From positions 8,884 through 72,883 of the forward strand of contig JBAYMS010000001.1 in assembly GCA_041663425.1 (NCBI GenBank): 64,000 nucleotides of DNA, given 5' to 3'. The position numbers were made by a program, and so were the translations under genes. Positions 34,095 through 50,623 of this stretch are shown in pieces; the first letter of the stretch is position 1; the number at the start of each line of letters is the position of its first letter. The stretch is from Candidatus Omnitrophota bacterium (GTDB lineage Bacteria; Omnitrophota; Gorgyraeia; 2-01-FULL-45-10). A model generated the notes under the pieces. It was not told where the DNA came from. It was given only the letters and a program-made list of their open reading frames with translations, and ran no database searches.

Positions 34095-34105
34095 GAGGGA
34101 CAGCA

Positions 34106-35341: not shown

Positions 35342-35347
35342 GAAAAC

Positions 35348-36151
35348 ATGAAACAGCTGAACGAAAAAATACTGGATAATAAAAAGATGGGTGCAGGGTT
35401 CTGGCGCATGCGCATCTGTTCTGCGTATCTCGCCGGAAAGGCAAAGCCGGGGCAGTTTGTAGAGGTGAGGTGTTCGGCAGGCTCGGATCCGCTTTTGCGC
35501 AGGCCTTTGGGCATTCACAGGATCATAAAAGGCGGCGCGGAACTTTTATATGAAGTGGTCGGCAAAGGTACGGACATACTCTCTCAGAAGAAGAAGGGCG
35601 AGGAACTCGACCTGATAGGGCCCCTCGGAAACGGTTTTGATGTCCCCGGCCGTAAAGGGATAGCGATACTTGTTGCCGGCGGTAACGGAGTGGCTCCGTT
35701 ATTCGCGCTTGCGGAGAAAATTGAAAAGCTGGGATGGAAAGTTAAAGTGCTGATAGGTGCGCGCCACAATACGCATATTTTATGCGAAAAAGAATTTAAA
35801 TCGCTCGGGGCAGAGGTTATCGTTGCCACAGAGGATGGGTCAAAAGGACACAAAGGCCTTGTGACGCATCTACTGAAAACGGAGCTGGCAGGGGCACAAA
35901 CCGGTAAAGTAGTGAATGTATATGCCTGCGGGCCCATGGGGATGCTTAAGGCTGTCGCAAATATAGCGCGCGATTACAGAGCGCCGTGTCAGGTTTCGCT
36001 CGAGGAACGCATGGCATGCGGTGTAGGCGTGTGTCTGGGCTGCCCTGTTAAAATAAAAATAGGGCACGGGATAAACGAAGCCGGCTATACATATAAGATG
36101 GTTTGTAAAGACGGGCCTGTATTCGATGCAGAAGAAGTTTTCTGGGAATAA
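35348..36151 (+). CDS. pyrK: dihydroorotate dehydrogenase electron-transfer subunit
   Basis: 267 aa. Ferredoxin-reductase-like fold with a C-terminal Cys cluster (CGVGVCLGC). Confidence 0.85.
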   Translation: MKQLNEKILDNKKMGAGFWRMRICSAYLAGKAKPGQFVEVRCSAGSDPLLRRPLGIHRIIKGGAELLYEVVGKGTDILSQKKKGEELDLIGPLGNGFDVPGRKGIAILVAGGNGVAPLFALAEKIEKLGWKVKVLIGARHNTHILCEKEFKSLGAEVIVATEDGSKGHKGLVTHLLKTELAGAQTGKVVNVYACGPMGMLKAVANIARDYRAPCQVSLEERMACGVGVCLGCPVKIKIGHGINEAGYTYKMVCKDGPVFDAEEVFWE

Positions 36152-36155
36152 AAAT

Positions 36156-37079
36156 ATGAAACCTGATCTTCAAGTAAAAATAGGAACGCTGAAACTTAAA
36201 AACCCGGTCATGGTAGCGTCGGGGACATTCGGCGCTGAATACCGGGAGCTTGTCGATGTCGGTAAGCTGGGTGCGATAGTCACCAAGACCATTACGCTAA
36301 ACGGTCGCGCCGGCAATCCTGCCCCGAGAGTGGCGGAGGCATCTTCAGGTATGCTCAATTCGATAGGACTGGAAAACAAAGGGCTGGAAGATTTTATAAA
36401 CAAAAAAATACCGGCTTTTCCGGGCGGTGATACCAAACTTATTGTAAGTATTGCCGGAGACACCGAAGGTGAATTTACGCGCATGGTCGGAGAGCTCGAC
36501 AAAGTGAAGAAGGTGAGCGCTATAGAGATCAACCTCTCCTGCCCAAACGTAAAGCACGGCAGCAGGACCGGACTTACTGCCCAGGATGAGGACGCATCAT
36601 ACAGTGTAGTGCGCGCTGTGCGCAGGGCGACGGGACTGCCGATCATAGCGAAGCTTACTCCGAACGTAACCGATATAGCGAAGATAGCTGTGGCTGTGGA
36701 GAAGGCCGGTGCCGACGCTATCCTCGCAGTTAATACATTTGCCGCTATGGCTATCGATATCGAGACCCGCAGGCCTAAGCTCGGGAACGTGACGGGCGGT
36801 TTAAGCGGTCCGGCGATAAAACCTATAGCGCTGAAGATGATATGGGACATTTACAATAAAGTAGAAATCCCTATAATAGGTGTGGGCGGTATCATGAATT
36901 ATAAAGATGCCGTTGAATTTATGCTCTGCGGCGCGGCAGCGATACAGGTCGGCACGGCTACATTTGTAAATCCAAACACAGCGATCGAGATCATAAAAGG
37001 ACTTAATAAATACTGCAGTGATAAAAATATAAAAAATATGTCCGAGCTCGTCGGAAATATTAATATAGGCCGCTTGTAG
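36156..37079 (+). CDS. pyrD: dihydroorotate dehydrogenase (class 1B catalytic subunit)
   Basis: The start is taken at MKPDLQVKIG (36156), just after the pyrK stop, rather than the overlapping track start at 36126. Motifs include NPVMVASGTFG and EINLSCPN. Confidence 0.88.
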   Translation: MKPDLQVKIGTLKLKNPVMVASGTFGAEYRELVDVGKLGAIVTKTITLNGRAGNPAPRVAEASSGMLNSIGLENKGLEDFINKKIPAFPGGDTKLIVSIAGDTEGEFTRMVGELDKVKKVSAIEINLSCPNVKHGSRTGLTAQDEDASYSVVRAVRRATGLPIIAKLTPNVTDIAKIAVAVEKAGADAILAVNTFAAMAIDIETRRPKLGNVTGGLSGPAIKPIALKMIWDIYNKVEIPIIGVGGIMNYKDAVEFMLCGAAAIQVGTATFVNPNTAIEIIKGLNKYCSDKNIKNMSELVGNINIGRL

Positions 37080-37087
37080 AACTCGCG

Positions 37088-37120
37088 GCACTTAGCCACA
37101 CCGTGGCTTAATAAACTTGG
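37088..37120 (+). repeat. copy A of a ~33-nt 5'-leader motif (GCACTTAG-N-GTGGCTnAATAAACTTGG)
   Basis: GCACTTAGCCACACCGTGGCTTAATAAACTTGG is followed by AGcattATG of pyrF. Two more copies lie at 55046-55080 and 55098-55132. Confidence 0.6.
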
Positions 37121-37126
37121 AGCATT

Positions 37127-37840
37127 ATGACATCCATTAATAAATTGATAGTAGCGCTCGATGTAAATACCGAAGAAAAAGCGGTCGCCCTGGCTGAGAC
37201 GCTGAAAAATGAAGTGAGATTTCTCAAGATAGGCCTTGAGTTATTTTCAGCATGCGGGCCGAAGATAGTGGAGAGGATAAAAGAGACCGGCTGCGATGTA
37301 TTCCTCGACCTGAAATTTCATGACATTCCGACAACAGTTATGAAAGCCGCAGCAGCGGTAACTGCGCTCGAGCCTTTCATGTTCAATGTGCACGCGCTGG
37401 GCGGATATGAGATGATGAAACGGACTGCCGAGGCTGTAGCGAGCGAGACCTCAAGGCTCGAAATAGTAAAACCGAAAGTTCTGGCGGTGACGATACTTAC
37501 CAGCATGGACGAAAAGGCGATGAGAGAGATAGGGCTATCCTTAAATCCGAAAGACGCGGTTCTGAAATTGGCTGCTCTGGCGAAAAAAGCGGGCTTAGAC
37601 GGAGTGGTGGCTTCACCGTCCGAGACGAAAGCCATAAGGGAAGAGCTGGGCGAGGATTTTATTATAGTGACTCCGGGTGTGCGTCCGGAATGGGCCGCAG
37701 TAAATGATCAGAAGAGGGTCGCCACACCGAAAGCGGCAATAAAAGACGGCGCAAATTATATAGTTGTCGGCCGTCCGATAACGGAATATAAAGATCCTGC
37801 CGAAGCGGCCAGGCAGATACGAAAAGAGATGGAGATATGA
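37127..37840 (+). CDS. pyrF: orotidine 5'-phosphate decarboxylase
   Basis: 237 aa with VALDV and DLKFHDIPTT motifs. Confidence 0.88.
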   Translation: MTSINKLIVALDVNTEEKAVALAETLKNEVRFLKIGLELFSACGPKIVERIKETGCDVFLDLKFHDIPTTVMKAAAAVTALEPFMFNVHALGGYEMMKRTAEAVASETSRLEIVKPKVLAVTILTSMDEKAMREIGLSLNPKDAVLKLAALAKKAGLDGVVASPSETKAIREELGEDFIIVTPGVRPEWAAVNDQKRVATPKAAIKDGANYIVVGRPITEYKDPAEAARQIRKEMEI

Positions 37841-38406
37841 ACGAGAAAGAAGTTTTGGATGTATTTAATAAAAAGAATGCGTTGTTAACAGGCCATTTCA
37901 AATTATCGAGCGGCCTTCACAGTAAAAATTATCTGCAATGCGCCCTGATATTGCAGTATCCGGACATCGCGGAAGAGCTTTCGAAAGAGATAGCGAAAAG
38001 AGTTTCAAAAGAAAATATAGATGTGGTTGTAGGACCAGCTCTGGGCGGGGTAACATTTGCTTATGAGATCGCGAGAGCACTTAAAGTGCGCGGGCTATTT
38101 ACGGAACGACAGGAAGGTGCGATGGTGCTGCGCCGCGGTTTTACTATATCGCCGGGTGAGAAAGTTCTTGTGGCAGAAGACGTTATAACAACGGGCGGTT
38201 CTACTAAAGAAGTCATCGAAGTTGTAAAAAAGCTGGGCGGTATCGTGGTCGGAGTAGCGAGCATAATAGACAGAAGCTCAGAGCCTGTGGACTTCGGCGT
38301 GCCGTTTACGGCTCTTGCCAGGATAAAGGTTGAGACTTTCAAAGAAGAAGATTGTCCTCTCTGTAAGGCAAAAACCCCGATAACAAAGCCCGGCTCGAGA
38401 AAATAA
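37837..38406 (+). CDS. pyrE: orotate phosphoribosyltransferase
   Basis: 189 aa with PRTase motif VLVAEDVITTGGS. Confidence 0.88.
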   Translation: MNEKEVLDVFNKKNALLTGHFKLSSGLHSKNYLQCALILQYPDIAEELSKEIAKRVSKENIDVVVGPALGGVTFAYEIARALKVRGLFTERQEGAMVLRRGFTISPGEKVLVAEDVITTGGSTKEVIEVVKKLGGIVVGVASIIDRSSEPVDFGVPFTALARIKVETFKEEDCPLCKAKTPITKPGSRK

Positions 38407-38466
38407 GCATAAATTCTAAATTATTGCGTCCGGACGGGCGGTTATGGTATTATATTTTCCACTTTA

Positions 38467-38541
38467 GGGCAAGTAGCTCAATGGCGGAGCAATCGGTTTA
38501 CATCCGATAGGTTACAGGTTCGACCCCTGTCTTGCCCACCA
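38467..38541 (+). tRNA. tRNA-Val (anticodon TAC), encoded CCA
   Basis: GGGCAAGTAGCTCAATGGCGGAGCAATCGGTTTACATCCGATAGGTTACAGGTTCGACCCCTGTCTTGCCCACCA. The anticodon loop is TTTACAT. Confidence 0.85.
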
Positions 38542-38616
38542 CTTCTCTGAATAACCCAAGCCATGCAGTCCCGAGGAGATGTGGTTTGACTGATGCGACG
38601 AGGGACACTTAACCCT

Positions 38617-38859
38617 ATGAGCAAGTGGACTGTTTATATTCTTAAATGTAATGACGCTTCTTTATATACCGGCATTACGACCGATCTTGAAAAACGGGTA
38701 AAAAAGCACAATGAAGGCCGTGCTGCGAAGTACACGAGAGCAAAAAGGCCTGTTTCAGTGGTTTATACTGAAGGCGCTGTTAATTCATCCTCAGCTAAAA
38801 AGAGAGAAGCCGAGATAAAAAAATTATCTCGACAAGCTAAGGTAGAGCTGATAAAATAA
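38617..38859 (+). CDS. GIY-YIG (URI) domain nuclease-family protein
   Basis: WTVYILKCNDASLYTGITTDLEKRVKKHNEG matches the GIY..YIG..R..HN pattern. The start is taken at MSKW. It is sandwiched between tRNA-Val and tRNA-Asp. Confidence 0.75.
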   Translation: MSKWTVYILKCNDASLYTGITTDLEKRVKKHNEGRAAKYTRAKRPVSVVYTEGAVNSSSAKKREAEIKKLSRQAKVELIK

Positions 38860-38873
38860 GCTTCCAGATTTCC

Positions 38874-38950
38874 GGGGACGTAGTTCAGTTGGTTAGAACG
38901 TCAGATTGTCGATCTGAAGGTCGCGGGTTCGACCCCCGTCGTCCCCGCCA
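38874..38950 (+). tRNA. tRNA-Asp (anticodon GTC), encoded CCA
   Basis: GGGGACGTAGTTCAGTTGGTTAGAACGTCAGATTGTCGATCTGAAGGTCGCGGGTTCGACCCCCGTCGTCCCCGCCA. The anticodon loop is TTGTCGA. Confidence 0.85.
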
Positions 38951-38984
38951 TATAGAAACAGTAACTGGTTTAATACCAGATGAT

Positions 38985-39030
38985 TAGCCGTAACAAGTTG
39001 TAAATTCAACTGGTTACGGCTATTTTATTT
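38985..39030 (+). terminator. intrinsic terminator after tRNA-Asp
   Basis: A 15-bp stem TAGCCGTAACAAGTT / AACTGGTTACGGCTA with one mismatch and loop GTAAATTC, followed by TTTTATTT. Confidence 0.55.
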
Positions 39031-39104
39031 ATCTTGCGTGTTTTGGAAATTAGCGCTATTCTTGGAAGTGATGGCACAAAAATGGCACAGTCATAGGGCT
39101 CCGA

Positions 39105-39599
39105 ATGGCGAATAATATTGATGTTTCAAAACTTCCGCTAAGCAAGATATTGATTTTGTTTGGCGACTTAATGGATGAGCTGAAGAAAAGAGGCGTTGTT
39201 AGAACGCGTAATAATCCGGTAGCTGACTATGCCGAATGGCTAACGGTAAGAGTCTTTAGTCTTGGCATCCAAACAAGCTCTAACAAAGGCTTTGATGCCA
39301 TTGATAAAAAAGGAATTCGATACCAAATAAAAGGCCGTAGGCTCGATGCTTCAAACCCATCCCGGCAATTGGGGGTTATTCGCGATCTTGATAAAAAGGG
39401 ATTCGATTTTCTTATCGCTATCATATTTAACAAAGATTTTACTATTCACGATGCCTATAAAATTCCGCACGAGCTCATAGGCGAATACGCTCGTTATAGT
39501 AAACATCAAAATGGATATATATTACACCTTAAAGGAAAAATTCTTCTGGCAAAAGGCGTTGAGAATATTACCGGAGCATTAAGCAAAGTTTCGGCATGA
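39105..39599 (+). CDS. small hypothetical protein with PD-(D/E)xK-like motif spacing (putative nuclease-fold partner of the PHP-ATPase)
   Basis: 164 aa with E44 (DYAEW), D64 (GFDAID), Q74-I-K76 (YQIKGRR) and a hydrophobic strand FDFLIAIIF. It ends 7 nt before the next gene, which has its own GAGGAG SD. The fold assignment is by motif spacing only. Confidence 0.4.
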   Translation: MANNIDVSKLPLSKILILFGDLMDELKKRGVVRTRNNPVADYAEWLTVRVFSLGIQTSSNKGFDAIDKKGIRYQIKGRRLDASNPSRQLGVIRDLDKKGFDFLIAIIFNKDFTIHDAYKIPHELIGEYARYSKHQNGYILHLKGKILLAKGVENITGALSKVSA

Positions 39600-39606
39600 G
39601 GAGATT

Positions 39607-42477
39607 ATGAACTATCCACGAGGGTCGGAATGGAGAAAATGGGACTTACATTTACACACACCGTCTTCTTATGATTACGATGACAAGAGCGTCACAGATG
39701 AGCAATTGATTAAAACCTTAAAAGAAAACGAAATTACCGTTGTAGCTATAACGGATCATCATTTTATAGATGTTGAAAAGATAAAGAAACTACAAGAATT
39801 AGCAAAAGACGAAATTACAATATTCCCGGGGATTGAGCTTCGAGCAGAGCTGGGAGGTAGCGAATCCATCCATTTTATAGGAATATTCCCAGAGGATTCT
39901 GATGTAAATGATATTTGGACAAAATTACAGGGGCAGTTAGAATTAACGCCAGCGGATGTAAAGAAAAAAGGTAATGATAAGATTTATTGCCATTTGAATA
40001 AGGCCGCCGAGCTTATTCATCAGTTGGGAGGCATTATAACTATTCATGCTGGCTCGAAAAGTAACTCGGTTGAAAAAATCACTAATGCGCTTCCATATAA
40101 AGAAGCGCTTAAAGAAGACATTGTGAAATCTATCAATGTCTATGAAATCGGGAATTCAGCCGATGTGGAAGGATACAGAAGCAATGTTTTTCCGAACATA
40201 GGGATTAAAATTCCTTTGGTAATTTGTTCTGACAACCACGATATAAAAAAGTATGTGTTAAAAGAGAATTGTTGGATAAAAGCAGATCCAACATTTACCG
40301 GGTTAAAGCAGATTATATTAGAGCCGGAGGATAGGGTATATATTGGCAAAGCTCCAACGAGGAGGAAAAACCTCGCCAGCGTAATCGACAAGATTGAGAT
40401 TAGTAATTCTAACGGGTGGTTTGAGGAATCCCCTATTGTTTTAAACGAAGACTTGGTCACCATAATAGGAGAAAAAGGTGCCGGTAAGACCGCGCTTGCC
40501 GATTTTATAGCTCTGGCGGGCGGGGATTTTGGGCTTCAAAAAAGCGATGCTAGCTCTTTTGTATTCAAAGCTCTAACCCCTACCAAACAAATCGAGAAGA
40601 CCATTGAAAATTGTCAAGTAACTATCAAATGGAAAGAGGGCAATCCCGACCAGATAACTATAAACAAAGAGCTGGTTGATTATAAACCTACGAAGAAAGT
40701 AAAATATTTATCTCAAAGTTTTATTGAGGAAAAATGTCGCCCAGAACACGCTGATGAATTGAGAAAAGAAATCGAGAATATCGTTTTTCAATATATACCA
40801 ACATCCGATAGGCTTGGGCAAACAACATTTAACGATTTAAAACGTTTAATGACGCGGGGTATTGAAGTAGAAAAAAGTAACTGCAGACAGCTTTTATTCG
40901 ACCTCAATGGTGAAATTTCTATTCTAAGAGACGAGATAGATAATCTCGAAGTACAAAAGTCAACTAAGAAGAAAACTGAAGATGAAATAACTCAGTTAAA
41001 TGAACAGAAACCAAAACCTGCTGATGCCGAGGAAAAAGCCATCGAAGATAAGCTGGCTATTTTATATACCAAGAAAAGTGAGATTAACGAAAAAGTTGCA
41101 GAATGCAAGTTGCAATTAAGCACCATAGAATCTATAAAAACAAAGCTGCTAGCTCTAAGTCAATACGTTGAAAAAGAATTGATTAGCATTAAGACGGACC
41201 TTGATTCAATAGCTTTAGGCAGTATTTACAACAAGCTAACATTTTCAATAAATCCAGAATTTCATACGAAGCTTGATGAAGCTAAGAATAAGCTGACGAA
41301 ACAGATTAAAGATTTTGAAGGAGCGCCGGAAAAAGTATCGTCCCTCACCGAAGATGAGAAAAAACTAGAGCTGATAACGACTGATTTTGTCAATGGGCTC
41401 ACACTTTCTCGTTTAGATGTAATTATAGAATGGCTAGAAACAAAATCGAGCATTGCCTATGATGCAAGAAAAGTTATTAAGGATTTCGAAGAGAAAATAG
41501 AGAAAAATAAGAAAGCAGTAGCATCTTTAGAAAAAAGCATCGCCGAGGTAGAGAAAACAAAAAAACCTACTCTTGCGAAGAAAATCGAGGAAAGAAATAG
41601 TGCCTATAAAAGTTATTTCACTTTGCTCCAAAAAGAAAAAAGTGTATTTGAAAGCCTGAGCGCACCTATTAAAACAAAAATTGATTCAGAGAATGTTGGT
41701 GATAAGCAGATAGGTTACTCAGCAAGAATTGAATTTGATGTTAATGGATTTTATGAAAAAGCATGTGAAATAATAAATTTCAAAGCAGCTGGTCATTATC
41801 ATCAAGATGGCCAACTGTTATTTAAAGATATCAAAGCCATAGCAGAAAAGATTGAGCTCGCAGAAGATGCCGATGTTTGCGCTTGTCTTGTAGACCGGTT
41901 CATTCAAACATTCGAAAAAGATGATGGTAGCGATGTTGATATTAAAACTCAACTGAAAAAAGGTAAAAAACAAATTGATTTTGATGCATGGCTTTTTGGT
42001 ATTTCATTCTTCAGCGTGACATATAGCATAAAATACCAAGATACTTATATTGAATTGCTATCTCCTGGAAAAAAAGGGATAGTGTTGTTACTAATGTATC
42101 TCACGTTAGATGCTGAGAGTGGCATACCGTTGATTATAGACCAACCAGAAGAAAATCTAGACAACAAATCCGTATATGCGCATCTAATAGAATACTTCCG
42201 CCAAGCCAAGAAGCGGCGGCAAATTATCGTTGTAACACACAATCCGAATTTAGTATTAAATACAGATGCCGAACAAGTGCTTGTTGCTGATTTTCAAGTC
42301 GTACCACCTGCGGGGCAAGCAAGAATAAGATATATAAGCGGGTCTATAGAAAATTCGTTTATTAACGAGTCTCTCAAAGACCCTCTCAGAAGACAGGGTA
42401 TTCGCGAGCATGGTGCCGAGATATTGGAGGGCGGTAAAAAGGCCTTTATTCAGCGAAAAGATAAGTACGAATACTAA
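39607..42477 (+). CDS. PHP-domain phosphoesterase fused to Rad50/SbcC-like ABC ATPase with central coiled coil (Ppl-like architecture)
   Basis: 956 aa. PHP motifs are WDLHLHT, ITDHH, GIELR, IHAGS and SDNHD (aa 1-~230). Walker A is GEKGAGKT (aa 288-295). A long charged heptad-like region spans aa ~420-690. The signature-like LSPGKKG, Walker B LIIDQPEENLD and H-loop VVTHNPN follow. Confidence 0.7.
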   Translation: MNYPRGSEWRKWDLHLHTPSSYDYDDKSVTDEQLIKTLKENEITVVAITDHHFIDVEKIKKLQELAKDEITIFPGIELRAELGGSESIHFIGIFPEDSDVNDIWTKLQGQLELTPADVKKKGNDKIYCHLNKAAELIHQLGGIITIHAGSKSNSVEKITNALPYKEALKEDIVKSINVYEIGNSADVEGYRSNVFPNIGIKIPLVICSDNHDIKKYVLKENCWIKADPTFTGLKQIILEPEDRVYIGKAPTRRKNLASVIDKIEISNSNGWFEESPIVLNEDLVTIIGEKGAGKTALADFIALAGGDFGLQKSDASSFVFKALTPTKQIEKTIENCQVTIKWKEGNPDQITINKELVDYKPTKKVKYLSQSFIEEKCRPEHADELRKEIENIVFQYIPTSDRLGQTTFNDLKRLMTRGIEVEKSNCRQLLFDLNGEISILRDEIDNLEVQKSTKKKTEDEITQLNEQKPKPADAEEKAIEDKLAILYTKKSEINEKVAECKLQLSTIESIKTKLLALSQYVEKELISIKTDLDSIALGSIYNKLTFSINPEFHTKLDEAKNKLTKQIKDFEGAPEKVSSLTEDEKKLELITTDFVNGLTLSRLDVIIEWLETKSSIAYDARKVIKDFEEKIEKNKKAVASLEKSIAEVEKTKKPTLAKKIEERNSAYKSYFTLLQKEKSVFESLSAPIKTKIDSENVGDKQIGYSARIEFDVNGFYEKACEIINFKAAGHYHQDGQLLFKDIKAIAEKIELAEDADVCACLVDRFIQTFEKDDGSDVDIKTQLKKGKKQIDFDAWLFGISFFSVTYSIKYQDTYIELLSPGKKGIVLLLMYLTLDAESGIPLIIDQPEENLDNKSVYAHLIEYFRQAKKRRQIIVVTHNPNLVLNTDAEQVLVADFQVVPPAGQARIRYISGSIENSFINESLKDPLRRQGIREHGAEILEGGKKAFIQRKDKYEY

Positions 42478-42655
42478 GTTTAATAATCAATTGCTGAGAA
42501 TAAATATAAACAAGAACTGATTAATCGCTGGTCTAAGCTTTATGGTAAACAGATAACCGAAGAAGAATATCGACAGATTTGTGATAATTTAAGCGGTTAC
42601 ATTAAACTTTTGTATGAGTGGGATATGAAAGATAAAACGCAAAAAGGAGAGCACA

Positions 42656-42880
42656 ATGCCAAGGATAGCAAGTAATGTTTGCCCAGCGTGTCATAATAAG
42701 TTTCCTGCACACAAAGGTAACACGAAAACTTTTAGACAACTTACGCCGGCGGAGAGAAGTAGGTCTATTAGAATGATGGCTATCAATTTAAAGAAGGCTA
42801 TAAATGCTGACTTGCCATCGACCCGTATCAGACGGCTTTTTTGGGTTATAGATTATATGGCGCGGCAGGGAAGCAGGTAA
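42656..42880 (+). CDS. hypothetical small protein (CPACH Cys/His-containing N-terminus)
   Basis: 74-aa ORF with a good SD (AAGGAG 8 nt upstream). No recognisable family. Confidence 0.3.
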   Translation: MPRIASNVCPACHNKFPAHKGNTKTFRQLTPAERSRSIRMMAINLKKAINADLPSTRIRRLFWVIDYMARQGSR

Positions 42881-42883
42881 CAA

Positions 42884-43025
42884 ATGATACATGAAAAAAA
42901 CGTATTTAACGATATCTTCGCTGATTTGATTTGCCATTCCCAGTTTGATGGAGGGCATAATCCTTTAGATTATTTGCACTATATGGACAAAATGGAACAG
43001 GCTAGAAAAAATAATAATGAAGAAG
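42884..43025 (+). pseudogene. 5' fragment of a small ORF interrupted by the IS3-family element
   Basis: ATG at 42884 encodes MIHEKNVFNDIFADLICHSQFDGGHNPLDYLHYMDKMEQARKNNNEE, then reads into the IS left inverted repeat and terminates. Deleting 43026-44259 joins it in frame to the fragment at 44260-44462. Confidence 0.5.
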
Positions 43026-43037
43026 TGACCTTACCCC

Positions 43038-43913
43038 TTACACTGCACAGCTCGTAAGGTGAATTTCTGGTGTTTTTTGTTGTTCTTTCCAGGCCTTGGT
43101 GAACTCTGCCGGAGTTAGACCGTCTAACGATCCGTGAGGCCTGAATGTATTATACTCCACTCTCCAGTCTTCGATAATCTTTTTTGCTTCTTCAATCGTA
43201 ACGAAGTAATGTTGATTGAGGCATTCGTGCCGTAGCCTACCATTGAACGACTCGATAAAAGCGTTCTGTATGGGCTTGCCGGGCTTTATAAAGTCAAGCC
43301 TAGCACCGTTATCATACGCCCATTTATCAAGGGCTCGTCCCGCGAACTCAGGACCGTTATCGGTCGTGATTACTTGCGGACATCCTCTTGTAAGAACTAG
43401 CCAATCAAGCACTCTCGTTACTCTGTTACCGTCTATAGACGTATCGACTTCGATAGAGAGACATTCTTTAGTAAAGATATCAAGCACGTTCAGCGTCTTT
43501 ATCTTCCTGCCGTTCCATAACCCGTCTGACATAAAGTCCATCGCCCAGCGTTCATTGGGCTTCGAGGCTTCCGGTAGCTCTAGTCTGATCATTGAGGCTC
43601 TCTTGTGACGTTTGCGAAGCTTTAGCGCGAGGCTATTCTCCTTATAGATGCGCTCGGTGCGCTTATGGTTTACTACAAGTCCCTCACGATGCAATATATC
43701 GTGAAGCATCGGAAGTCCCCAGCTCTTATGCGTAGCTATAAGCTCCTTCATACGGTCTAATATCTTCGCATCGTTATTAGCTCTACTGGTCTTGTAATAA
43801 TAGCTTGATCTATTAAGCTCTACAAGCCTGCATGATCTAGCCTTCGACAGCCCAAAGCGCTCTTTTAACCGAGCTACAGCAAGTCTCTTTACTTTGGGCT
43901 TAGGAAGTTTTTT
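43038..43913 (-). CDS. IS3-family transposase OrfB (DDE integrase core), expressed as OrfAB via -1 frameshift
   Basis: The track ORF (43038-43751) begins at an internal Met. The same frame stays open upstream to the slippery site AAAAAAC (revcomp of 43907-43913) and encodes KKLPKPKVKRLAVARLKERFGLSKARSCRLVELNRSSYYYK... rve-type motifs are WAMDFM, TDNGPEF and ESFNGRLRHECLN. Confidence 0.8.
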   Translation of the reverse strand, partial: KKLPKPKVKRLAVARLKERFGLSKARSCRLVELNRSSYYYKTSRANNDAKILDRMKELIATHKSWGLPMLHDILHREGLVVNHKRTERIYKENSLALKLRKRHKRASMIRLELPEASKPNERWAMDFMSDGLWNGRKIKTLNVLDIFTKECLSIEVDTSIDGNRVTRVLDWLVLTRGCPQVITTDNGPEFAGRALDKWAYDNGARLDFIKPGKPIQNAFIESFNGRLRHECLNQHYFVTIEEAKKIIEDWRVEYNTFRPHGSLDGLTPAEFTKAWKEQQKTPEIHLTSCAV

Positions 43914-44167
43914 GAGTTGAGCGCCTTTAACGCCTGGTTATCGAGTGTTAAGTCCGCGACTATGTTCTTTAGTCTGCGGTTCTCATCCTCGAGCGCCCTT
44001 AGTTTCTTCGCGTCTGATACTTCCATGCCGCCATACTTCGATATCCACTTATAGATCGTGCCTTCACAGACATTAGCTTCTCTTGAGATATCTGAAACCG
44101 CCACTCCTTGCTCATGTCTCTTTAAAAAAGCTATTATCTGTTCCTCTGTAAATCTTTTGCGTGACAT
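43889..44167 (-). CDS. IS3-family transposase OrfA (HTH + leucine zipper)
   Basis: 92 aa, MSRKRFTEEQIIAFLKRHEQG...KLRALEDENRRLKNIVADLTLDNQALK, typical of IS3 OrfA. Confidence 0.85.
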   Translation of the reverse strand: MSRKRFTEEQIIAFLKRHEQGVAVSDISREANVCEGTIYKWISKYGGMEVSDAKKLRALEDENRRLKNIVADLTLDNQALKALNSKNFLSPK

Positions 44168-44259
44168 ATCCCGAGCCTCCTTTACGTAGCTATTGGTAGC
44201 TACGGTTATACACTAGGAAACTCGCCTTGTAAACTGTCTAGTTTAGCGGGGTAGGGTCA

Positions 44260-44462
44260 CTTTCGTCAGTTTAAATTATGGCGAGCCCGCAGATTTTTAC
44301 ATTGTCCCAAGCAAAGTCGTTGCAACCTTCATAAAAAAACATAATCGAAAGTGGCTTAAGACCCCCGGCAGAAAAGGCCAGAAACACAACCAAACCTCAA
44401 TGAGACAATTTAGAGACGACGAACAGCGATATCGTAACGCATATTACCTCATGAAGTTGTAA
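44260..44462 (+). pseudogene. 3' fragment of the IS-interrupted small ORF
   Basis: An open frame without a start encodes FVSLNYGEPADFYIVPSKVVATFIKKHNRKWLKTPGRKGQKHNQTSMRQFRDDEQRYRNAYYLMKL, with a stop at 44460-44462. An in-frame stop just inside the IS end precedes it. Confidence 0.5.
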
Positions 44463-44541
44463 TATTTTGTAAATTTATATAATAGTTTAAGGGACGGTTC
44501 TGACGAAAATCTGACCGGTGACATACCACCGACAGGTTCCT

Positions 44542-45084
44542 ATGATACTCAAAGACTATGACATATCGTTAGTATATAGGCTACTTGAGCCGGGCCCGGT
44601 TGTGATGGTAACAACATCGCGGGATGGCAGGCCCAATGTTATGACTATGTCCTGGCATACCATGATGGAATTTACCCCGCCTCTTATAGGATGTGTTATA
44701 AGTGACAGGAATTACACATTCGATGCGCTCAAAGCCACAAAAGAATGCGTTATTGCGATACCTTCGGTAAAGCTTGCAGGCAAAGTGGTGCAGGTGGGCA
44801 GTGTTTCAGGCCGGAACACGGATAAATTTAAAACAATAGGACTTACTCCGAAACCCGCCTTTATAGTGAAAGCGCCTATCATAGCCGAATGTTTTGCAAA
44901 CATAGAATGCAGGGTGGTAGATACCTCGCTGGTAAATAAATATAATTTCTTCATAATGGAAGCGGTGAAAGCTTCCATAGATCACGCGCAAAAAAATCCG
45001 AAAACCCTCCATCATCATGGTAAAGGAACGTTCGTTTCCGATGGCGTAAAAATAAGGCGTAAATTTAACAGCCTTGAGCCATAG
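44542..45084 (+). CDS. flavin reductase-like (FMN-binding split-barrel) protein
   Basis: LLEPGPVVMVTTSRDGRPNVMTMSWHTMMEFTPPLIGCVIS is typical of the flavin reductase-like domain. The start is taken at MILKDY; the track GTG at 44518 is also possible. Confidence 0.72.
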   Translation: MILKDYDISLVYRLLEPGPVVMVTTSRDGRPNVMTMSWHTMMEFTPPLIGCVISDRNYTFDALKATKECVIAIPSVKLAGKVVQVGSVSGRNTDKFKTIGLTPKPAFIVKAPIIAECFANIECRVVDTSLVNKYNFFIMEAVKASIDHAQKNPKTLHHHGKGTFVSDGVKIRRKFNSLEP

Positions 45085-45126
45085 AAAATAAAAATCGCAC
45101 TTATATTTGACACTTGCACATACATC

Positions 45127-47085
45127 ATGTATACTTCATCAAAAACCGAAAGGAAATTAATGTCAAATAAATCTATATTTGCGGCAGTAATAACAGTATT
45201 TGTTTTATTTATAACTTCCGTTTCTTTTGCAAGTCAAGCGTCAACCACTTCCACCAATCAAAGCGAGATCAAACCCTACTGGTTTTTAGATGCGCCTAAA
45301 GAATGGCCCGCCCAGGTAATGCCTGGTATGCGCGGCGGGACTGAGAAACTTAAAAGCTATATCGACAATCTCATCCCTGTTTTTGGCACAAAAGATATCA
45401 TACTATTTGCTGATTATAAATCTGTTATGGGAGCCAGAGGTTCAAACGAAGAGAATATAGGAATAGGGTTAAGAGATCTTCTCTTCGACGAAAAGCTTAT
45501 CCTGGGAGGCAATTTCTTCTATGATACCCGCTATACGGAAAACAAGATAAGGCATCATCAGCTGGCATTTGGTTTGGAGGGTTTGACGAAATGGGTAGAT
45601 GTAAGGTCTAATTTTTACTTTCCGATATCGGGTAGGCAGATGCTAAGCGGTGATACTACATATTTATTCGGCTCGAAAAGCCTGGATGTGCAGAACACAT
45701 ACGAAGAACCGTTAACCGGCATTGATTACGAAGCAGGTGTTCTTATACCATGTTTGTCTGATTACGTTGAGACAAGAGCATTTCTGGGAGGATATAACTA
45801 TTTTCCCGGCATAGGTAAAGGGCTTAACGGTATAAAGGCAAGGTTTGAAGTCCGTCCCATAAAGGCGCTTACGGTAAATGTTGAGATGAAAAGCGATAAT
45901 TACGGTGCGCCCCAATATTTTGTTGAAGGTTTTATGACAATCCCTCTCGATACGATGAACGTATTCAAAATAAAAAATCCATTTACCGAATTTGGAAAAT
46001 ACTTCTCCTATAAAAAGGGCATTAGGTCTTTAAGAGAACGTATGGTTGATAGAGTAGTGAGAGACATAGACGTAACCGCTAAAAGCACTCCTACGGTACG
46101 GTCAAAAGCTCATGATCTTACCTATGTAGACAACACATATTATAGCGGATACTCGAATGGTTCGCTGGATCGCCCGTATACGACTATAGCCGATGGTATA
46201 ACAAATGCCACGGGAGACCATTGGATTTACGTAAAAGGCACCGGCACTAATTATGCCGGCAATCTTAACCTCCCCTCAAACTACGTTCTTTGGGGTAGTG
46301 CTTATAATGGAGGCTTCCAGAATCTCGGCGTAAGCGGTGTTTATCCCGTCATAAGCGGCGGCACTCAATGCTTAACTATTAATAATAATAATACGGTTAT
46401 GGGGATGAAGATGCAGAGCGCCACGGACAACGGTATCAAATTTACCGCAGGGACCACATTAACCGGAACGATAAAACATAATATCTGTAATAGCAACGGC
46501 AACAACGGAATAGATCTGGACAGCAACACAGCTACGATCACAAGCTTCACCATCGACAGTAATACGCTCAATAGTAATACCAGTAATGGAATAAACTTTG
46601 GAGGCAATAGCGGGACGATGCGTAACGTTACTATTTCCAATAATATGATAGACAGCAACGGGGATGATGCAATAAGGATGTGGGCAAACTCAGGGACACT
46701 GACCGGTTTTCTCATCTCTAATAATACGTGCAGCAATGCCGGCCTTCACCATGGAATAGATATGGATGGCAATGGTGGCACTATGAGTAATTTTACGTTC
46801 TTGCGTAACGTCATAACAGGTAATAACCGGGACGGAATAATGATGAAGGGCGGGACTATAACCGGCATTAATTTTGGCGATGGCACAGCAGGCGGCTATA
46901 ACTCCATCTATAATAACAACCAAGCGGCTGGCAGCTATTACGATTTTGAAAACCAAACCGGAAACGCTGTCTACGCCCAGTATAACTGGTGGGGACAGGC
47001 TACCGGACCGGGCGCAGGGCAGATTTACAATAGTGCCACTAGCAGCACAAATTCTTCAAATTACCTATCCTCAAATCCAAACTAA
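45127..47085 (+). CDS. secreted/outer-membrane protein: inverse-autotransporter-like beta-domain plus parallel beta-helix (PbH1) repeat passenger
   Basis: 652 aa with a signal-like N-terminus. The region aa ~90-280 shows the intimin/invasin beta-domain pattern (NIGIGLR...GGNFFYDTRY...HHQLAFGLE...VRSNFYFPISG). The C-terminal half has repeated NNGIDLDSN / SNGINFGGN / GDDAIRMW / HHGIDMDGN / NRDGIMMKG units. Confidence 0.55.
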   Translation: MYTSSKTERKLMSNKSIFAAVITVFVLFITSVSFASQASTTSTNQSEIKPYWFLDAPKEWPAQVMPGMRGGTEKLKSYIDNLIPVFGTKDIILFADYKSVMGARGSNEENIGIGLRDLLFDEKLILGGNFFYDTRYTENKIRHHQLAFGLEGLTKWVDVRSNFYFPISGRQMLSGDTTYLFGSKSLDVQNTYEEPLTGIDYEAGVLIPCLSDYVETRAFLGGYNYFPGIGKGLNGIKARFEVRPIKALTVNVEMKSDNYGAPQYFVEGFMTIPLDTMNVFKIKNPFTEFGKYFSYKKGIRSLRERMVDRVVRDIDVTAKSTPTVRSKAHDLTYVDNTYYSGYSNGSLDRPYTTIADGITNATGDHWIYVKGTGTNYAGNLNLPSNYVLWGSAYNGGFQNLGVSGVYPVISGGTQCLTINNNNTVMGMKMQSATDNGIKFTAGTTLTGTIKHNICNSNGNNGIDLDSNTATITSFTIDSNTLNSNTSNGINFGGNSGTMRNVTISNNMIDSNGDDAIRMWANSGTLTGFLISNNTCSNAGLHHGIDMDGNGGTMSNFTFLRNVITGNNRDGIMMKGGTITGINFGDGTAGGYNSIYNNNQAAGSYYDFENQTGNAVYAQYNWWGQATGPGAGQIYNSATSSTNSSNYLSSNPN

Positions 47086-47107
47086 TTCTTAGGTAGATTG
47101 AAACCGC

Positions 47108-47156
47108 GGGGACGGCTCTGAATGTAATTTCAGAACCGTCCCCAAATTTTTATTTT
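47108..47156 (+). terminator. intrinsic terminator
   Basis: GGGGACGGCTCTGAA ... TTCAGAACCGTCCCC stem with one internal mismatch, followed by AAATTTTTATTTT. Confidence 0.6.
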
Positions 47157-47237
47157 ATATTATCATTATCAAAAACTTGTCAACCGTGCATTTTTAATGT
47201 AAGCTTAAACCGCTGATGTTAAAAACAGAGGAGCGGC

Positions 47238-47642
47238 ATGGCCCAGAAAATATTGATAGTAGATGACGAAAAAGATTTTATCGATATGCTTGCCGAAAGG
47301 CTTATGGCAAAAGGATTTAACATAGTCGAAGCCTTTAACGGAAAAGATGGGCTCGATAAAGCGCATGCAGAAAAGCCTGATGTGATAGTGCTCGACCTGA
47401 CAATGCCGGAGATGAGCGGTTATGATGTATGCAGAAAGCTTAAAATAGATAAAAATTATAAAGACATACCGATCATAATGTTGACTGGAAAGTTCCAGCC
47501 AAACGATATAGAGTTCGGCAGGGAAATGGGAGCAGATGCGTATCTGACAAAACCGCTGGAGTTGAAAGCGTTATCCCACAAGATAGACGCGCTCTTACGC
47601 CTTCGGGATAAAAATAAAAAAATAAAAGGAGTATCAAGATGA
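47238..47642 (+). CDS. single-domain response regulator (CheY-like receiver)
   Basis: 134 aa with KILIVDDE, VIVLDLTMPEMSG and the conserved K in AYLTKP. Confidence 0.85.
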   Translation: MAQKILIVDDEKDFIDMLAERLMAKGFNIVEAFNGKDGLDKAHAEKPDVIVLDLTMPEMSGYDVCRKLKIDKNYKDIPIIMLTGKFQPNDIEFGREMGADAYLTKPLELKALSHKIDALLRLRDKNKKIKGVSR

Positions 47643-49833: not shown

Positions 49834-49853
49834 AAGAGTGATATAATTAATAT

Positions 49854-50480
49854 ATGCTTATACTGATCGAGAAAATACCGTTTCACAGGCTTGGAGCGCT
49901 GATAGACGGTGTATTTGCGATAGTCATGACGATACTTGTCCTCGATATAAAAGTTCCTCATGACATGGCTGTATTTAAAAGTTTAAGTTTAGAGCACTTC
50001 CTCACCGGACAGTTCCAGGATATAGTTATCTACATGGTAGTCTTTATGGTCCTCGCGTATCTGTGGATAATAAATCACAGCGAGTCACACTTTATAAAAT
50101 TTACCGACTATGTCCACTTATGGCTTACCATACTATGTCTTATGTTCGTAGCGCTTCTTCCTTTCTCATCCGCTCTGGTGAATAAATATCCGCAAGATGA
50201 GATCGCGGAGCTGTTCCTTGCGGGGAATGTTCTGATAATAGGCATATTTAACTATATCAGCTGGGCATATATTATAAAGCGTCCGGCGCTGCTGGAGTCT
50301 ACGCTCACTGAGAAACAAACAGCCACAGAGAAGAAGAAGCTTCTGATAATGCCTCTTGTGGCCGTTATGGCAATGGCGGTTGCTCTTATATATCCCCTGG
50401 GGTCATCGTATACGCTTCTTTTAGCTCCGGTAGCAATGTTCTTTATGGAATTGCGATGGGGAGCTAGGAATAAAAGGTAA
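49854..50480 (+). CDS. TMEM175 / DUF1211-family membrane protein (putative K+ channel)
   Basis: 208 aa with the signature RLGALIDGVFAIVMTILVLDI and six hydrophobic segments. Confidence 0.7.
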   Translation: MLILIEKIPFHRLGALIDGVFAIVMTILVLDIKVPHDMAVFKSLSLEHFLTGQFQDIVIYMVVFMVLAYLWIINHSESHFIKFTDYVHLWLTILCLMFVALLPFSSALVNKYPQDEIAELFLAGNVLIIGIFNYISWAYIIKRPALLESTLTEKQTATEKKKLLIMPLVAVMAMAVALIYPLGSSYTLLLAPVAMFFMELRWGARNKR

Positions 50481-50484
50481 GGCA

Positions 50485-50623
50485 TTGTATTTCTCTTCAA
50501 CATATGCTATACTATAGGTGAGGCCAAGGGAGAAGGGATTTAGACAGTAGCCCATAAGCCTCACAAGGTTTTGCCCATCTACCAAATACGGTATAAACAG
50601 AAAAGGTAGGTGGGTTTTCTTTT
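50485..50623 (+). promoter_or_regulatory. promoter + structured leader + intrinsic terminator (candidate riboswitch/attenuator)
   Basis: TTGTAT (50485-50490)-N17-TATACT (50508-50513). Hairpin GTGAGGC (50518-50524)/GCCTCAC (50558-50564) encloses a 33-nt purine-rich segment. A 10-bp stem CCCATCTACC (50574-50583)/GGTAGGTGGG (50605-50614) is followed by TTTTCTTTT. Confidence 0.35.

What the first reader, a model, noticed from the sequence alone, without database searches (positions are those of the whole stretch)
38951..44517. tRNA-Asp-flanked accessory island lacking an integrase
tRNA-Asp and its terminator (38985-39030) end a housekeeping block of the pyr operon and tRNAs. The next ~5.5 kb looks more AT-rich by eye and contains only orphan or mobile content: the PHP-ATPase pair, a startless ORF remnant (~42500-42670), a 74-aa orphan, an IS3 element and a split ORF. 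Ordinary metabolism resumes with the flavin reductase gene. I could not find an integrase or a direct repeat of the tRNA-Asp 3' end at the distal boundary. This looks like an old or decayed island, or a defence hotspot that is not integrase-mediated.
Basis: partly seen in the sequence, partly recalled or inferred. Interest (0 to 1): 0.5.

Follow-up and report, generated by a model that had tools for sequence, protein, structure and literature searches.

The report
Variable defence island beside tRNA-Asp
The 5.5 kb after tRNA-Asp in this Omnitrophota genome is a real, horizontally acquired slot that holds two intact anti-phage-type genes and the wreck of an older mobile element; this is an ordinary kind of bacterial defence island, not a new one.

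Summary
tRNA-Asp (38874-38950) and a strong terminator hairpin (38985-39022) end a syntenic pyr/tRNA block. The non-IS part of what follows (39031-43025) has the lowest GC of any 4-kb stretch in the window (0.373 against a mean of 0.430).

Five related Omnitrophota lineages keep pyrE-tRNA-Val-GIY-YIG-tRNA-Asp. Each has different DNA after tRNA-Asp.

The interval has two layers.
- Module A (39031-42888) holds an intact BisI-family 5mC-dependent restriction endonuclease, an intact TrlF-family PHP + ABC-ATPase protein (related to Ppl only in its N-terminal part) and two small ORFs. A contig 99.99% identical over the next 12.2 kb diverges completely to the left of 42889, so this module looks strain-variable.
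- Module B (42889-44517) holds a 137-bp stub, an intact IS3-family element with no target-site duplication, and the last 66 codons of a 150-aa nuclease-like gene. In other genomes that gene sits in defence islands, one of them with integrase, resolvase and TraG genes.

I found no integrase and no tRNA-Asp repeat.

Verdict: a tRNA-adjacent defence hotspot with a decayed mobile-element remnant, a new member of a known kind. How the cargo entered is unresolved.

The parts
38874..38950 (+). tRNA-Asp (GTC). Conserved left anchor of the variable slot.
   Evidence: ARAGORN. Rfam tRNA, 72.9 bits. Conserved in L002, L093, L171-177.
38985..39032 (+). Intrinsic-terminator-like hairpin and U-tract after tRNA-Asp. 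Shared with L002 only.
   Evidence: Inverted repeat I7. Fold -28 kcal/mol, z = -4.75. Window 38962-39030 matches L002 11197-11264 at 80%.
39031..42888 (+). Module A: low-GC defence block whose right edge coincides with a strain-level breakpoint.
   Evidence: GC 0.37. No DNA or protein match in L002. L180 is 99.99% identical from 42889 rightwards, and its first 225 bp are unrelated.
39105..39599 (+). BisI-family modification-dependent (5mC/5hmC, GCNGC) restriction endonuclease homologue, 164 aa. Catalytic E44, D64 and Q74-I75-K76 are present.
   Evidence: PDB Eco15I 8q5m E = 1.2e-42 and NhoI 8q5n E = 1.4e-19, with alignment. PADLOC mREase_II PDLC03212 E = 3e-60. Pfam DUF6998. Motifs as described in PMC11347163.
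39607..42477 (+). TrlF-family PHP + ABC/SMC-like ATPase, 956 aa, starting 7 bp after the REase gene. Motifs: PHP H15xH17, Walker A 288-295, signature-like 819, Walker B 842-848, H878.
   Evidence: NCBIfam NF045780, 566 bits against a cutoff of 350, full length. Ppl NF042955, only 120 bits against a cutoff of 1000, N-terminal. PADLOC Ppl 1.9e-31 over residues 6-304. Motifs. Identical to NCBI WCY36_00295 of an Omnitrophota MAG; next relative 62%.
42487..42675 (+). Small ORF with no canonical start codon. Homologue of a 53-aa ORF found in a defence island (L169 4302-4463).
   Evidence: Translation. blastn 69%, tblastx 58% over 43 aa. L169 ORF sequence.
42656..42880 (+). 74-aa ORF with an N-terminal CxxC. 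Rare small-protein family, function unknown.
   Evidence: Eight homologues of 53-85 aa, E = 1e-10 to 1e-5, plus three weaker hits. No significant Pfam, PADLOC or NCBIfam family.
42889..43025 (+). 137-bp stub between the strain breakpoint and the IS. The 57-aa ORF 42884-43057 drawn across it is probably not a gene.
   Evidence: It runs into the IS end. In L180 the ATG is absent. No homologue in any fetched locus.
43026..44259 (-). Intact IS3-family insertion sequence, 1234 bp. Terminal inverted repeats 43026-43037 and 44248-44259. orfA 43889-44167. orfB ends at 43038. Slippery A AAA AAC at 43907-43913. No target-site duplication (flanks AAG and CTT).
   Evidence: Pfam and NCBIfam hits. Inverted repeat I16. 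Sequence. The conceptual -1 frameshift fusion hits NF033516 positions 1-368 of 369, 296 bits. Single copy in the window. The same IS end is at the end of contigs L171 and L172.
44262..44462 (+). 3' remnant (66 codons plus stop) of a 150-aa PD-(D/E)XK-like gene. The 5' 83-84 codons, which carry the predicted catalytic motifs, are missing. The remnant begins at the IS end.
   Evidence: Homologues P0121-P0140, 150 aa, 75-87% identical over the C-terminal part only. 80% nucleotide identity to L169 8253-8414. Weak Mrr_cat_2 and PHROG hits for the intact family.
44518..45084 (+). Flavin reductase-like gene (start at GTG 44518 or ATG 44542). Conserved right anchor.
   Evidence: Pfam Flavin_Reduct 5e-31. 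74% amino-acid identity to L002 17809-18369. The ATG-start product is on record in L180 and L181.

Best explanation
The interval between the tRNA-Asp terminator and the flavin-reductase gene is a hypervariable accessory-gene slot, about 19-24 kb from the dnaA/oriC region of an Omnitrophota chromosome. It is now filled by a two-layer mosaic.

Layer B (42889-44517) is the older wreck of a mobile defence island. An IS3-family element sits in a 150-aa nuclease-like gene. The DNA on the other side of the IS was then lost or exchanged. I infer this from the missing target duplication, the gene truncated at the IS end and the unrelated left flank. That event would also account for the missing XRE regulator partner of the nuclease gene, and possibly for a missing recombinase module.

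Layer A (39031-42888) is a compositionally foreign, apparently recent cassette with two intact single-gene defence functions.
- A BisI-family endonuclease, predicted to cut GCNGC sites carrying several 5-methyl- or 5-hydroxymethyl-cytosines in invading DNA.
- A TrlF-family protein, predicted to couple an ABC/SMC-type ATPase sensor to a PHP metal-dependent phosphoesterase/nuclease effector, by analogy with Ppl and OLD/Gabija-type enzymes.

I think cargo turnover most likely happens by recombination in the conserved anchors (the tRNA-Asp side and the layer B/flavin-reductase side) after DNA uptake. Integrative elements that target the tRNA-Asp 3' flank would supply new material.

Shown: variability, composition, gene identities, IS anatomy, the truncated gene, and the absence of an integrase and att repeats. 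Inferred: the order of events, IS-mediated deletion, the mode of cassette exchange and the biochemical activities.
For: - Synteny with L002 (PyrE 92%) runs up to tRNA-Asp and the hairpin and resumes only at the flavin reductase. Nothing in between is shared at DNA or protein level.
- L002 has its own low-GC block (GC 0.33-0.36 against 0.52 in its core) right after the hairpin.
- L093 (PyrE 99% over the 107 residues on the contig) has a second GIY-YIG gene after tRNA-Asp.
- L171-173 (GIY-YIG 95%) have iteron-like repeats, a 247-aa orphan and then the same IS end.
- L175/176 have PilZ, Ysc84 and GT87 genes after tRNA-Asp.
- Composition: the lowest-GC 4-kb stretch in the window, and GC3 about 2 sd low.
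- Defence identity.
- TrlF relatives sit next to type I R-M, toxin-antitoxin, or methyltransferase plus helicase genes. They also occur on 1105 plasmid records, usually as a single gene.
- BisI relatives occur on 121 plasmid records without a TrlF neighbour in the two records inspected.
- The exact TrlF protein is seen on one contig only, and the next relative is 62% identical.
- L180 is 99.99% identical from 42889 to 55084 but unrelated to the left of it.
- The IS is intact but has no target-site duplication.
- The nuclease gene is truncated at the IS end.
- The intact nuclease gene lies with a divergent XRE gene in a CBASS, resolvase, integrase and TraG element (L167) and in an SNF2/TIR island (L169). 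L169 also carries the 53-aa ORF homologue in the same order.
Against: - No empty site was recovered, so insertion cannot be told from replacement.
- Only one relative (L002) reaches the right anchor. The other relatives' contigs end within 0.4-5 kb of tRNA-Asp.
- The alternative fillings are not recognisable defence systems (PADLOC found nothing). The slot is shown to be variable, not shown to be dedicated to defence.
- The L180 breakpoint rests on a single metagenome contig whose unmatched head is only 225 bp. An assembly artefact cannot be excluded.
- The hairpin shared by the window and L002 lies between the tRNA and both islands. That argues against classical integration into the tRNA 3' end for the present cargo.
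- No second IS copy, and no TSD-bearing partner, was found that would document the proposed IS-mediated deletion.
- The activities of both defence genes are predicted from homology only.
Confidence: 0.72

Rival explanations
1. Classical tRNA-targeting integrative element that has decayed. The whole 5.5 kb entered once through a tyrosine integrase at the tRNA-Asp 3' end. The integrase and attR were later removed by the IS-associated deletion.
For: - In L093, L171-173 and L175/176, divergence from the window starts 0-4 nt after the tRNA-Asp 3' end.
- L171 carries iteron-like repeats and a possible replication protein right there.
- Homologues of the nuclease remnant lie in an element with an integrase, resolvase and TraG.
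- The IS lacks a TSD and abuts a truncated gene.
Against: - In the window the native-looking terminator hairpin, shared with L002, lies between the tRNA and the island.
- There is no repeat of the tRNA 3' end anywhere in the window.
- The nuclease remnant's 3' end is intact and only 55 bp from the flavin reductase. In L167 the integrase lies downstream of the nuclease gene, and that side is not deleted here.
- The L180 breakpoint splits the interval into parts with different histories.
Confidence: 0.2
2. Integrase-independent core hotspot. The cargo never belonged to a self-mobile element. It is swapped purely by homologous recombination between conserved flanks, as described for the P. aeruginosa core defence hotspots and for part of E. 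coli hotspot #37.
For: - The window and L002 share the tRNA and hairpin and diverge immediately after it, with different low-GC cargo.
- There is no integrase and no att repeat.
- A near-identical strain differs at a sharp boundary without repeats.
- Literature precedent: PMC10121019 and PMC10250203.
Against: - Mobile-element footprints are present: the IS, a remnant of a gene otherwise found in integrase-bearing islands, and the Rep-like and iteron content in L171.
- The right flank is conserved in only one relative, and synteny breaks again after the flavin reductase (purF in L002, an inverse-autotransporter-like gene here).
Confidence: 0.3
3. The BisI-like endonuclease and the TrlF-like protein form one co-operating two-gene defence system, not two neighbouring systems.
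For: - The intergenic gap is 7 bp, and both genes have the same strand and the same low GC.
- TrlF relatives are often directly next to restriction-type genes: type I R-M in L162, and a methyltransferase and helicase in L166.
Against: - The partner is not conserved. TrlF relatives stand alone on plasmids and between toxin-antitoxin pairs.
- BisI relatives on plasmids have no TrlF neighbour in the two records inspected.
- Eco15I_Ntd and NhoI cleave DNA on their own in vitro (PMC11347163).
Confidence: 0.08
4. Not an island: a vertically inherited region that is AT-rich for functional reasons, or an assembly chimera.
For: - The other low-GC stretch of the window (16-24 kb) is vertically inherited origin-region DNA with dnaA and dnaN. 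Low GC alone is therefore not proof.
Against: - Five relatives have different content at this site.
- The exact TrlF protein occurs once in the collection, and its nearest relative is 62% identical.
- L002 independently links tRNA-Asp and the flavin reductase within 6.8 kb, which argues against large-scale chimerism.
Confidence: 0.03

Closest known systems
tRNA-adjacent defence-island hotspots of E. coli (Hochhauser et al. 2023, PMC10121019) and the core defence hotspots of P. aeruginosa (Johnson et al. 2023, PMC10250203)
   Same: - A fixed chromosomal position, bounded by conserved genes and next to a tRNA gene, holds different accessory or defence cargo in different strains.
- Many occupied sites lack a detectable mobile element: 68% of the cases described for hotspot #37, and 18 hotspots lie in tRNA loci.
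   Different: - Here only a handful of metagenome-derived relatives are available.
- The alternative occupants are not recognisable defence systems.
- The phylum is Omnitrophota, and the slot lies about 20 kb from oriC.
[quoted passage not shown]
   Same: - Full-length homology (E = 1.2e-42 to Eco15I).
- Same size as the catalytic domain.
- Conserved E...D...QIK active-site residues.
   Different: - Specificity and activity are untested.
- The protein lacks the extra C-terminal domain described for full-length Eco15I.
TrlF family AAA-like ATPase (NCBIfam NF045780) and the single-gene anti-phage protein Ppl (NF042955, PADLOC Ppl)
   Same: - N-terminal PHP phosphoesterase domain followed by an ABC/SMC-type ATPase with a long insertion.
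- Passes the TrlF curated cutoff over the full length.
- Relatives lie in defence neighbourhoods and on plasmids.
   Different: - It fails the Ppl cutoff (120 bits against 1000), and only the N-terminal 300 residues resemble Ppl.
- I found no experimental paper on TrlF.
IS3-family insertion sequences
   Same: - orfA and orfB with a programmed -1 frameshift at A AAA AAC.
- DDE rve domain.
- TG...CA terminal inverted repeats.
- 1.23 kb long.
   Different: - No 3-4 bp target-site duplication. That points to a post-insertion rearrangement.

Membership tests
Classical tRNA-associated genomic island (integrase-mediated) | Lies next to a tRNA gene | tested here: met
   tRNA-Asp at 38874-38950. The island starts at 39031.
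Classical tRNA-associated genomic island (integrase-mediated) | Atypical base composition or codon usage | tested here: met
   GC 0.373 against 0.430, the lowest of 601 windows. GC3 about 2 sd low.
Classical tRNA-associated genomic island (integrase-mediated) | Variable presence or content among relatives | tested here: met
   Five different fillings, and a strain-level breakpoint in L180.
Classical tRNA-associated genomic island (integrase-mediated) | Tyrosine or serine integrase gene at one end | tested here: not met
   All ORFs of at least 50 aa were listed and the plausible ones scanned. Only the IS transposase has a recombinase-type (rve) domain. tblastn with integrase and resolvase queries gave no hit.
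Classical tRNA-associated genomic island (integrase-mediated) | Flanking direct repeat (attL/attR) that copies the tRNA 3' end | tested here: not met
   No match with up to 3 mismatches in 64 kb. The best ungapped match is 17 of 35. Only chance-level 9-mers link the junctions.
Defence island / defence hotspot | Two or more defence genes clustered | tested here: met
   BisI-family REase and a TrlF-family, N-terminally Ppl-like protein. The defence role of TrlF is inferred from homology and context.
Defence island / defence hotspot | Conserved flanking core genes with exchangeable cargo across strains | tested here: inconclusive
   The left anchor is conserved in all relatives. The right anchor is seen only in L002, L180 and L181.
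Defence island / defence hotspot | Alternative occupants are also defence systems | tested here: not met
   The L002, L171 and L093 occupants have no PADLOC hit. Only weak PHROG hits of unknown function were found.
BisI family restriction endonuclease | Sequence homology to characterised members over the catalytic domain | tested here: met
   Eco15I E = 1.2e-42 over residues 14-155. NhoI E = 1.4e-19.
BisI family restriction endonuclease | Catalytic Glu, (P)D and QxK motifs | tested here: met
   E44, D64 and Q74-I75-K76 align with the Eco15I residues. Motif definition from PMC11347163.
BisI family restriction endonuclease | Cleavage of GCNGC only when multiply 5mC/5hmC-modified | not testable with these tools
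   Needs an enzyme assay.
TrlF family AAA-like ATPase (NF045780) | Score above the curated cutoff, full-length | tested here: met
   566.4 bits against a cutoff of 350. Residues 5-955 match model positions 1-944.
Ppl anti-phage protein (NF042955) | Score above the curated cutoff, full-length | tested here: not met
   120 bits against a cutoff of 1000. Only residues 6-305 align.
IS3 family insertion sequence | OrfA/OrfB transposase with a -1 frameshift and a DDE (rve) domain | tested here: met
   The fusion hits NF033516 positions 1-368 of 369, 296 bits. rve and rve_3 domains.
IS3 family insertion sequence | Terminal inverted repeats | tested here: met
   43023-43037 against 44248-44262, 93% complementary.
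IS3 family insertion sequence | 3-4 bp target-site duplication | tested here: not met
   The flanks are ...GAAG and CTTT....

The most novel reading that the evidence does not exclude
In this Omnitrophota lineage, defence cassettes might be exchanged without any site-specific recombinase. The tRNA-Asp/terminator on one side and a resident IS3 copy plus its fixed right flank on the other would serve as portable homology anchors. The same IS end is found downstream of tRNA-Asp in a second lineage (L171/L172) with different cargo between tRNA and IS. A 99.99%-identical strain (L180) differs only to the left of the IS-proximal stub. A weaker variant of this reading is that the adjacent BisI-like and TrlF-like genes act as one coupled system.
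Probability: 0.12. Interest if true: 0.5.

Novelty: new member of a known kind. Interest (0 to 1): 0.3.

Why it matters
- It documents a strain-variable defence slot next to a tRNA gene in Omnitrophota, an uncultured phylum. The anatomy is clear: a recent cassette lies on top of an IS-eroded mobile-element remnant.
- It gives correct names to two genes deposited as hypothetical: a BisI-family modification-dependent endonuclease and a TrlF-family PHP-ATPase.
- It identifies a small backbone (a 53-aa ORF, an XRE gene and a 150-aa nuclease-like gene) that recurs in Omnitrophota-associated defence islands and could be used to find more of them.
- It does not reveal a new kind of system.

Tried and rejected
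- Repeat of the tRNA-Asp 3' end. I searched 25-mer and 16-mer patterns with up to 3 mismatches, an ungapped scan of the last 35 and 18 nt, and k-mer sharing between junctions. Only two 9-mers turned up (AAGTTGTAA, TTGTAAATT) between the hairpin and the end of the nuclease remnant, at about chance level. Rejected as att sites.
- Repeats at the edges of module A, and between the L180 head and the left junction: none of 8 nt or longer.
- 'Split ORF' as one gene interrupted by the IS. The reading frame is continuous across the IS, and a weak PHROG hit spanned the junction. However, the 150-aa homologues align only with the post-IS part. Rejected.
- BisI and TrlF as a conserved pair: not supported by contexts.
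- Composite transposon: there is only one IS copy in the window, and none in the fetched loci apart from the 36-nt ends in L171/L172.
- ncRNA in the interval: Rfam at E <= 0.1 finds only the two tRNAs.
- Literature on TrlF and DUF6998: nothing relevant.
- Phage records contain no BisI-like homologue by tblastn.
- The look-up of the flavin reductase with the GTG start failed. The ATG start worked.
- The look-up of the IS OrfB returned only the L180 contig, so multi-copy status is inferred only from contigs that break at the IS (L171, L172, L181).
- The second low-GC stretch (16-24 kb) turned out to be the dnaA/dnaN origin region, not another island.
Full report
**Source and setting.** The window comes from a Candidatus Omnitrophota MAG. 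The 956-aa protein is 100% identical to NCBI WCY36_00295, on a 99.5-kb contig. The GIY-YIG protein next to tRNA-Asp is on the same contig. The window also contains gyrA, gyrB, dnaN and dnaA on the minus strand and yidC, parA and parB on the plus strand, around 12-24 kb. The finding therefore lies about 19-24 kb from the probable origin of replication.

**Checking the observation.** ARAGORN and Rfam place tRNA-Asp(GTC) at 38874-38950. A 16-nt-arm hairpin at 38985-39022 is followed by a U-run. It folds at -28 kcal/mol, z = -4.75 against shuffles. Upstream lie pyrK, pyrD, pyrF, pyrE, tRNA-Val and a small GIY-YIG gene.
- The AT-richness is real for 39031-43025. GC is 0.373, the lowest of all 601 sliding 4-kb windows (mean 0.430, sd 0.024). 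The preceding block 30000-38950 is at 0.47.
- GC3 of the two large genes is 0.348 and 0.336, against a mean of 0.453 (sd 0.055) for 45 genes.
- The IS itself has GC 0.459.
- The only other low-GC stretch (16-24 kb) is the origin region.
- No integrase was found. The ORF list and family scans show only the IS transposase as a recombinase-type protein, and tblastn with three integrase or resolvase queries gave no hit in 64 kb.
- No copy of the tRNA-Asp 3' end exists elsewhere in the window.

**What the genes are.**
- ORF 39105-39599 (164 aa) is a BisI-family modification-dependent restriction endonuclease homologue. It matches Eco15I (PDB 8q5m, E = 1.2e-42) and NhoI (8q5n, E = 1.4e-19), PADLOC mREase_II at 3e-60 over the full length and Pfam DUF6998. 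The residues that the structural paper names as catalytic align with E44, D64 and Q74-I75-K76: the helix Glu, the Asp of 'AD', and 'QIK' in Eco15I (PMC11347163).
- ORF 39607-42477 (956 aa) starts 7 bp downstream. It passes the curated cutoff of NCBIfam NF045780 (TrlF family AAA-like ATPase) end to end, 566 bits against 350. It reaches only 120 of 1000 bits for Ppl, limited to the N-terminal PHP region. It keeps the PHP HxH motif, Walker A, an ABC-signature-like motif, Walker B and the H-loop. I found no paper on TrlF.
- Relatives of the 956-aa protein sit beside a type I R-M system in another Omnitrophota genome (L162), between VapBC and HicAB pairs (L165), and between a methyltransferase and a helicase near relaxase and coupling-protein genes (L166). 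They also occur on 1105 plasmid records, where the two I inspected were stand-alone genes.
- BisI relatives occur on 121 plasmid records without TrlF neighbours in the two I inspected. The pair is therefore best read as two adjacent single-gene defence functions.

**The distal part.**
- The 'startless remnant' is confirmed. Window 42506-42636 is homologous to a 53-aa ORF in L169, and that ORF's ATG aligns with AAA in the window.
- The 74-aa ORF belongs to a rare small-protein family: 8 homologues of 53-85 aa, plus 3 weaker hits, among 1.84 billion representatives.
- The IS spans 43026-44259. It has 12-nt terminal inverted repeats, orfA and orfB, and an A AAA AAC slippery site. The conceptual -1 fusion covers the IS3 transposase model from position 1 to 368 of 369, at 296 bits. 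The IS is therefore intact.
- Its flanks (…GAAG | IS | CTTT…) carry no target-site duplication.
- The sequence right of the IS (44262-44462) is the last 66 codons of a 150-aa family (P0121-P0140, 75-87% identity). That family's N-terminal 83-84 residues carry PD-(D/E)XK-like motifs. They are absent from the window and are not matched by the 47 codons left of the IS.
- So the 'split ORF' is a coincidental in-frame juxtaposition. The missing duplication and the gene truncated at the IS end point to a deletion or exchange on one side of the IS (inference).
- In other genomes the intact 150-aa gene lies divergent to an XRE-type regulator inside defence or mobile islands. L167 (Omnitrophota) has Z1, DUF2779, patatin and CD-NTase genes upstream, and resolvase, DUF3854, integrase and TraG genes downstream. 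L169 has SNF2, RNase H-like, DUF2130 and TIR genes upstream. L169 also holds the 53-aa ORF homologue, in the same order as in the window.

**Relatives at the same locus.**
- The closest species representative is L002 (PyrE 92%). It is collinear with the window from 28595 to tRNA-Asp. It shares the terminator hairpin, displaced by about 150 bp. The next shared sequence is the flavin reductase, at 74% amino-acid identity.
- L002's 6.5-kb filling is unrelated to the window's. It starts with 2.6 kb at GC 0.32-0.36 (core 0.52) that holds three unknown ORFs. A TPR gene, a DUF748 gene and mscL follow.
- None of these genes is in the window, and none of the window's island genes is in L002.
- After the flavin reductase, synteny breaks again. 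L002 has purF. The window has an inverse-autotransporter-like gene followed by ordinary chromosomal genes.
- L093 (PyrE 99% over the 107 residues on the contig) has a second GIY-YIG gene right after tRNA-Asp.
- L171-173 (GIY-YIG 95%) have three TTTTACACGG repeats and a 247-aa orphan. Their contigs then end 36 nt into the same IS end (97% identical to window 43026-43061).
- L175/176 (GIY-YIG 78%) have PilZ, Ysc84 and GT87 genes.
- L177 ends just after the tRNA.
- In L093, L171 and L175 the divergence from the window begins 0-4 nt after the tRNA 3' end.

**A strain-level breakpoint.** Contig L180, from another assembly, matches window 42889-55084 with one mismatch in 12,196 nt. Its first 225 bp match nothing in the window or in any fetched locus. 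The breakpoint falls a few bases after the stop codon of the 74-aa ORF. L181 starts inside the IS end. I read this as module A (39031-42888) being exchangeable between nearly identical strains, while module B (stub, IS, nuclease remnant) is older and shared. The caveat is that this rests on one contig end.

**Mechanism.**
- Shown: the slot is variable and compositionally foreign, carries defence-type genes, and has no integrase or att repeat. It also contains an intact IS with rearrangement scars.
- Inferred: an integrative, defence-carrying element once sat here. The IS inserted into its nuclease gene, and recombination or deletion removed one side. Cargo is now replaced by recombination in conserved anchors.
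- The hairpin shared with L002 upstream of both islands argues that the present cargo did not enter by integration into the tRNA 3' end. The breakpoints at the tRNA end in three other lineages argue that some occupants did. I cannot decide between a decayed integrative island and an integrase-independent hotspot. I give them roughly 0.2 and 0.3 as exclusive readings. The combined mosaic account gets 0.72 for its core claim, an acquired and variable defence island with a decayed mobile remnant.

**Comparison with known systems.** The arrangement matches published defence hotspots. In E. coli, 18 hotspots lie in tRNA loci, and 68% of the cases described for hotspot #37 had no detectable mobile element (PMC10121019). 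P. aeruginosa has core defence hotspots with no identifiable mobilisation (PMC10250203). The cargo genes are members of curated families. This is therefore a new member of a known kind, and interest is modest.

Noticed in passing
window 11923-28594; L002 2-817: Relative to L002, the segment that holds gyrA-gyrB-dnaN-dnaA | yidC-parA-parB appears inverted. L002 2-799 matches window 12695-11923 in reverse and is followed directly by the equivalent of 28595. The midpoint (about 20.3 kb) falls in the dnaA-yidC intergenic region. The ends lie at tRNA-Glu on one side and tRNA-Cys/tRNA-Val(GAC) on the other. This fits an origin-symmetric inversion with tRNA genes at the breakpoints.
   Followed up: partly
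window 20067-21077: Probable oriC. It is a 1-kb AT-rich gap between divergent dnaA and yidC. dnaN has the lowest GC3 in the window, 0.277. DnaA boxes were not searched.
   Followed up: no
window 38593-38859 (probable start at 38617); L002, L093, L171-177: An 80-aa GIY-YIG (YhbQ-like) gene sits between tRNA-Val(TAC) and tRNA-Asp in every relative. In L093 a second, divergent GIY-YIG gene follows tRNA-Asp. It is flanked by a perfect 12-nt inverted repeat (TTCTGCTTCGCT ... AGCGAAGCAGAA), which suggests a small mobile cassette.
   Followed up: partly
L171 2785-3714 (also L172, L173): Directly after tRNA-Asp there are three tandem TTTTACACGG-type repeats, then a 247-aa orphan protein and then the end of the same IS3-family element. 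This could be the replication module of an integrated plasmid-like element. The only family hit is a weak PHROG match.
   Followed up: partly
L180 1-225: A 225-bp head unrelated to the window is joined at window position 42889 in an otherwise 99.99%-identical contig. It contains two short palindromes (GTTCTGCC...GGCAGAAG; TGTCAAT...ATTGACA). Its origin is unknown.
   Followed up: partly
L167 7691-8453; L169 7720-8453: A conserved divergent pair recurs at the edge of variable defence cargo in Omnitrophota-associated islands: an XRE-type HTH gene (71-73 aa) and a 150-aa PD-(D/E)XK-like gene. It might serve as a marker or regulator module for such islands.
   Followed up: partly
window 45127-47085: A 652-aa protein with an inverse-autotransporter beta-domain and a right-handed beta-helix region follows the flavin reductase. 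It is absent from L002, which has purF there, so a second synteny break lies immediately right of the flavin reductase.
   Followed up: no
L002 11046-11196: About 150 bp are inserted between tRNA-Asp and the conserved terminator hairpin in L002, compared with the window.
   Followed up: no
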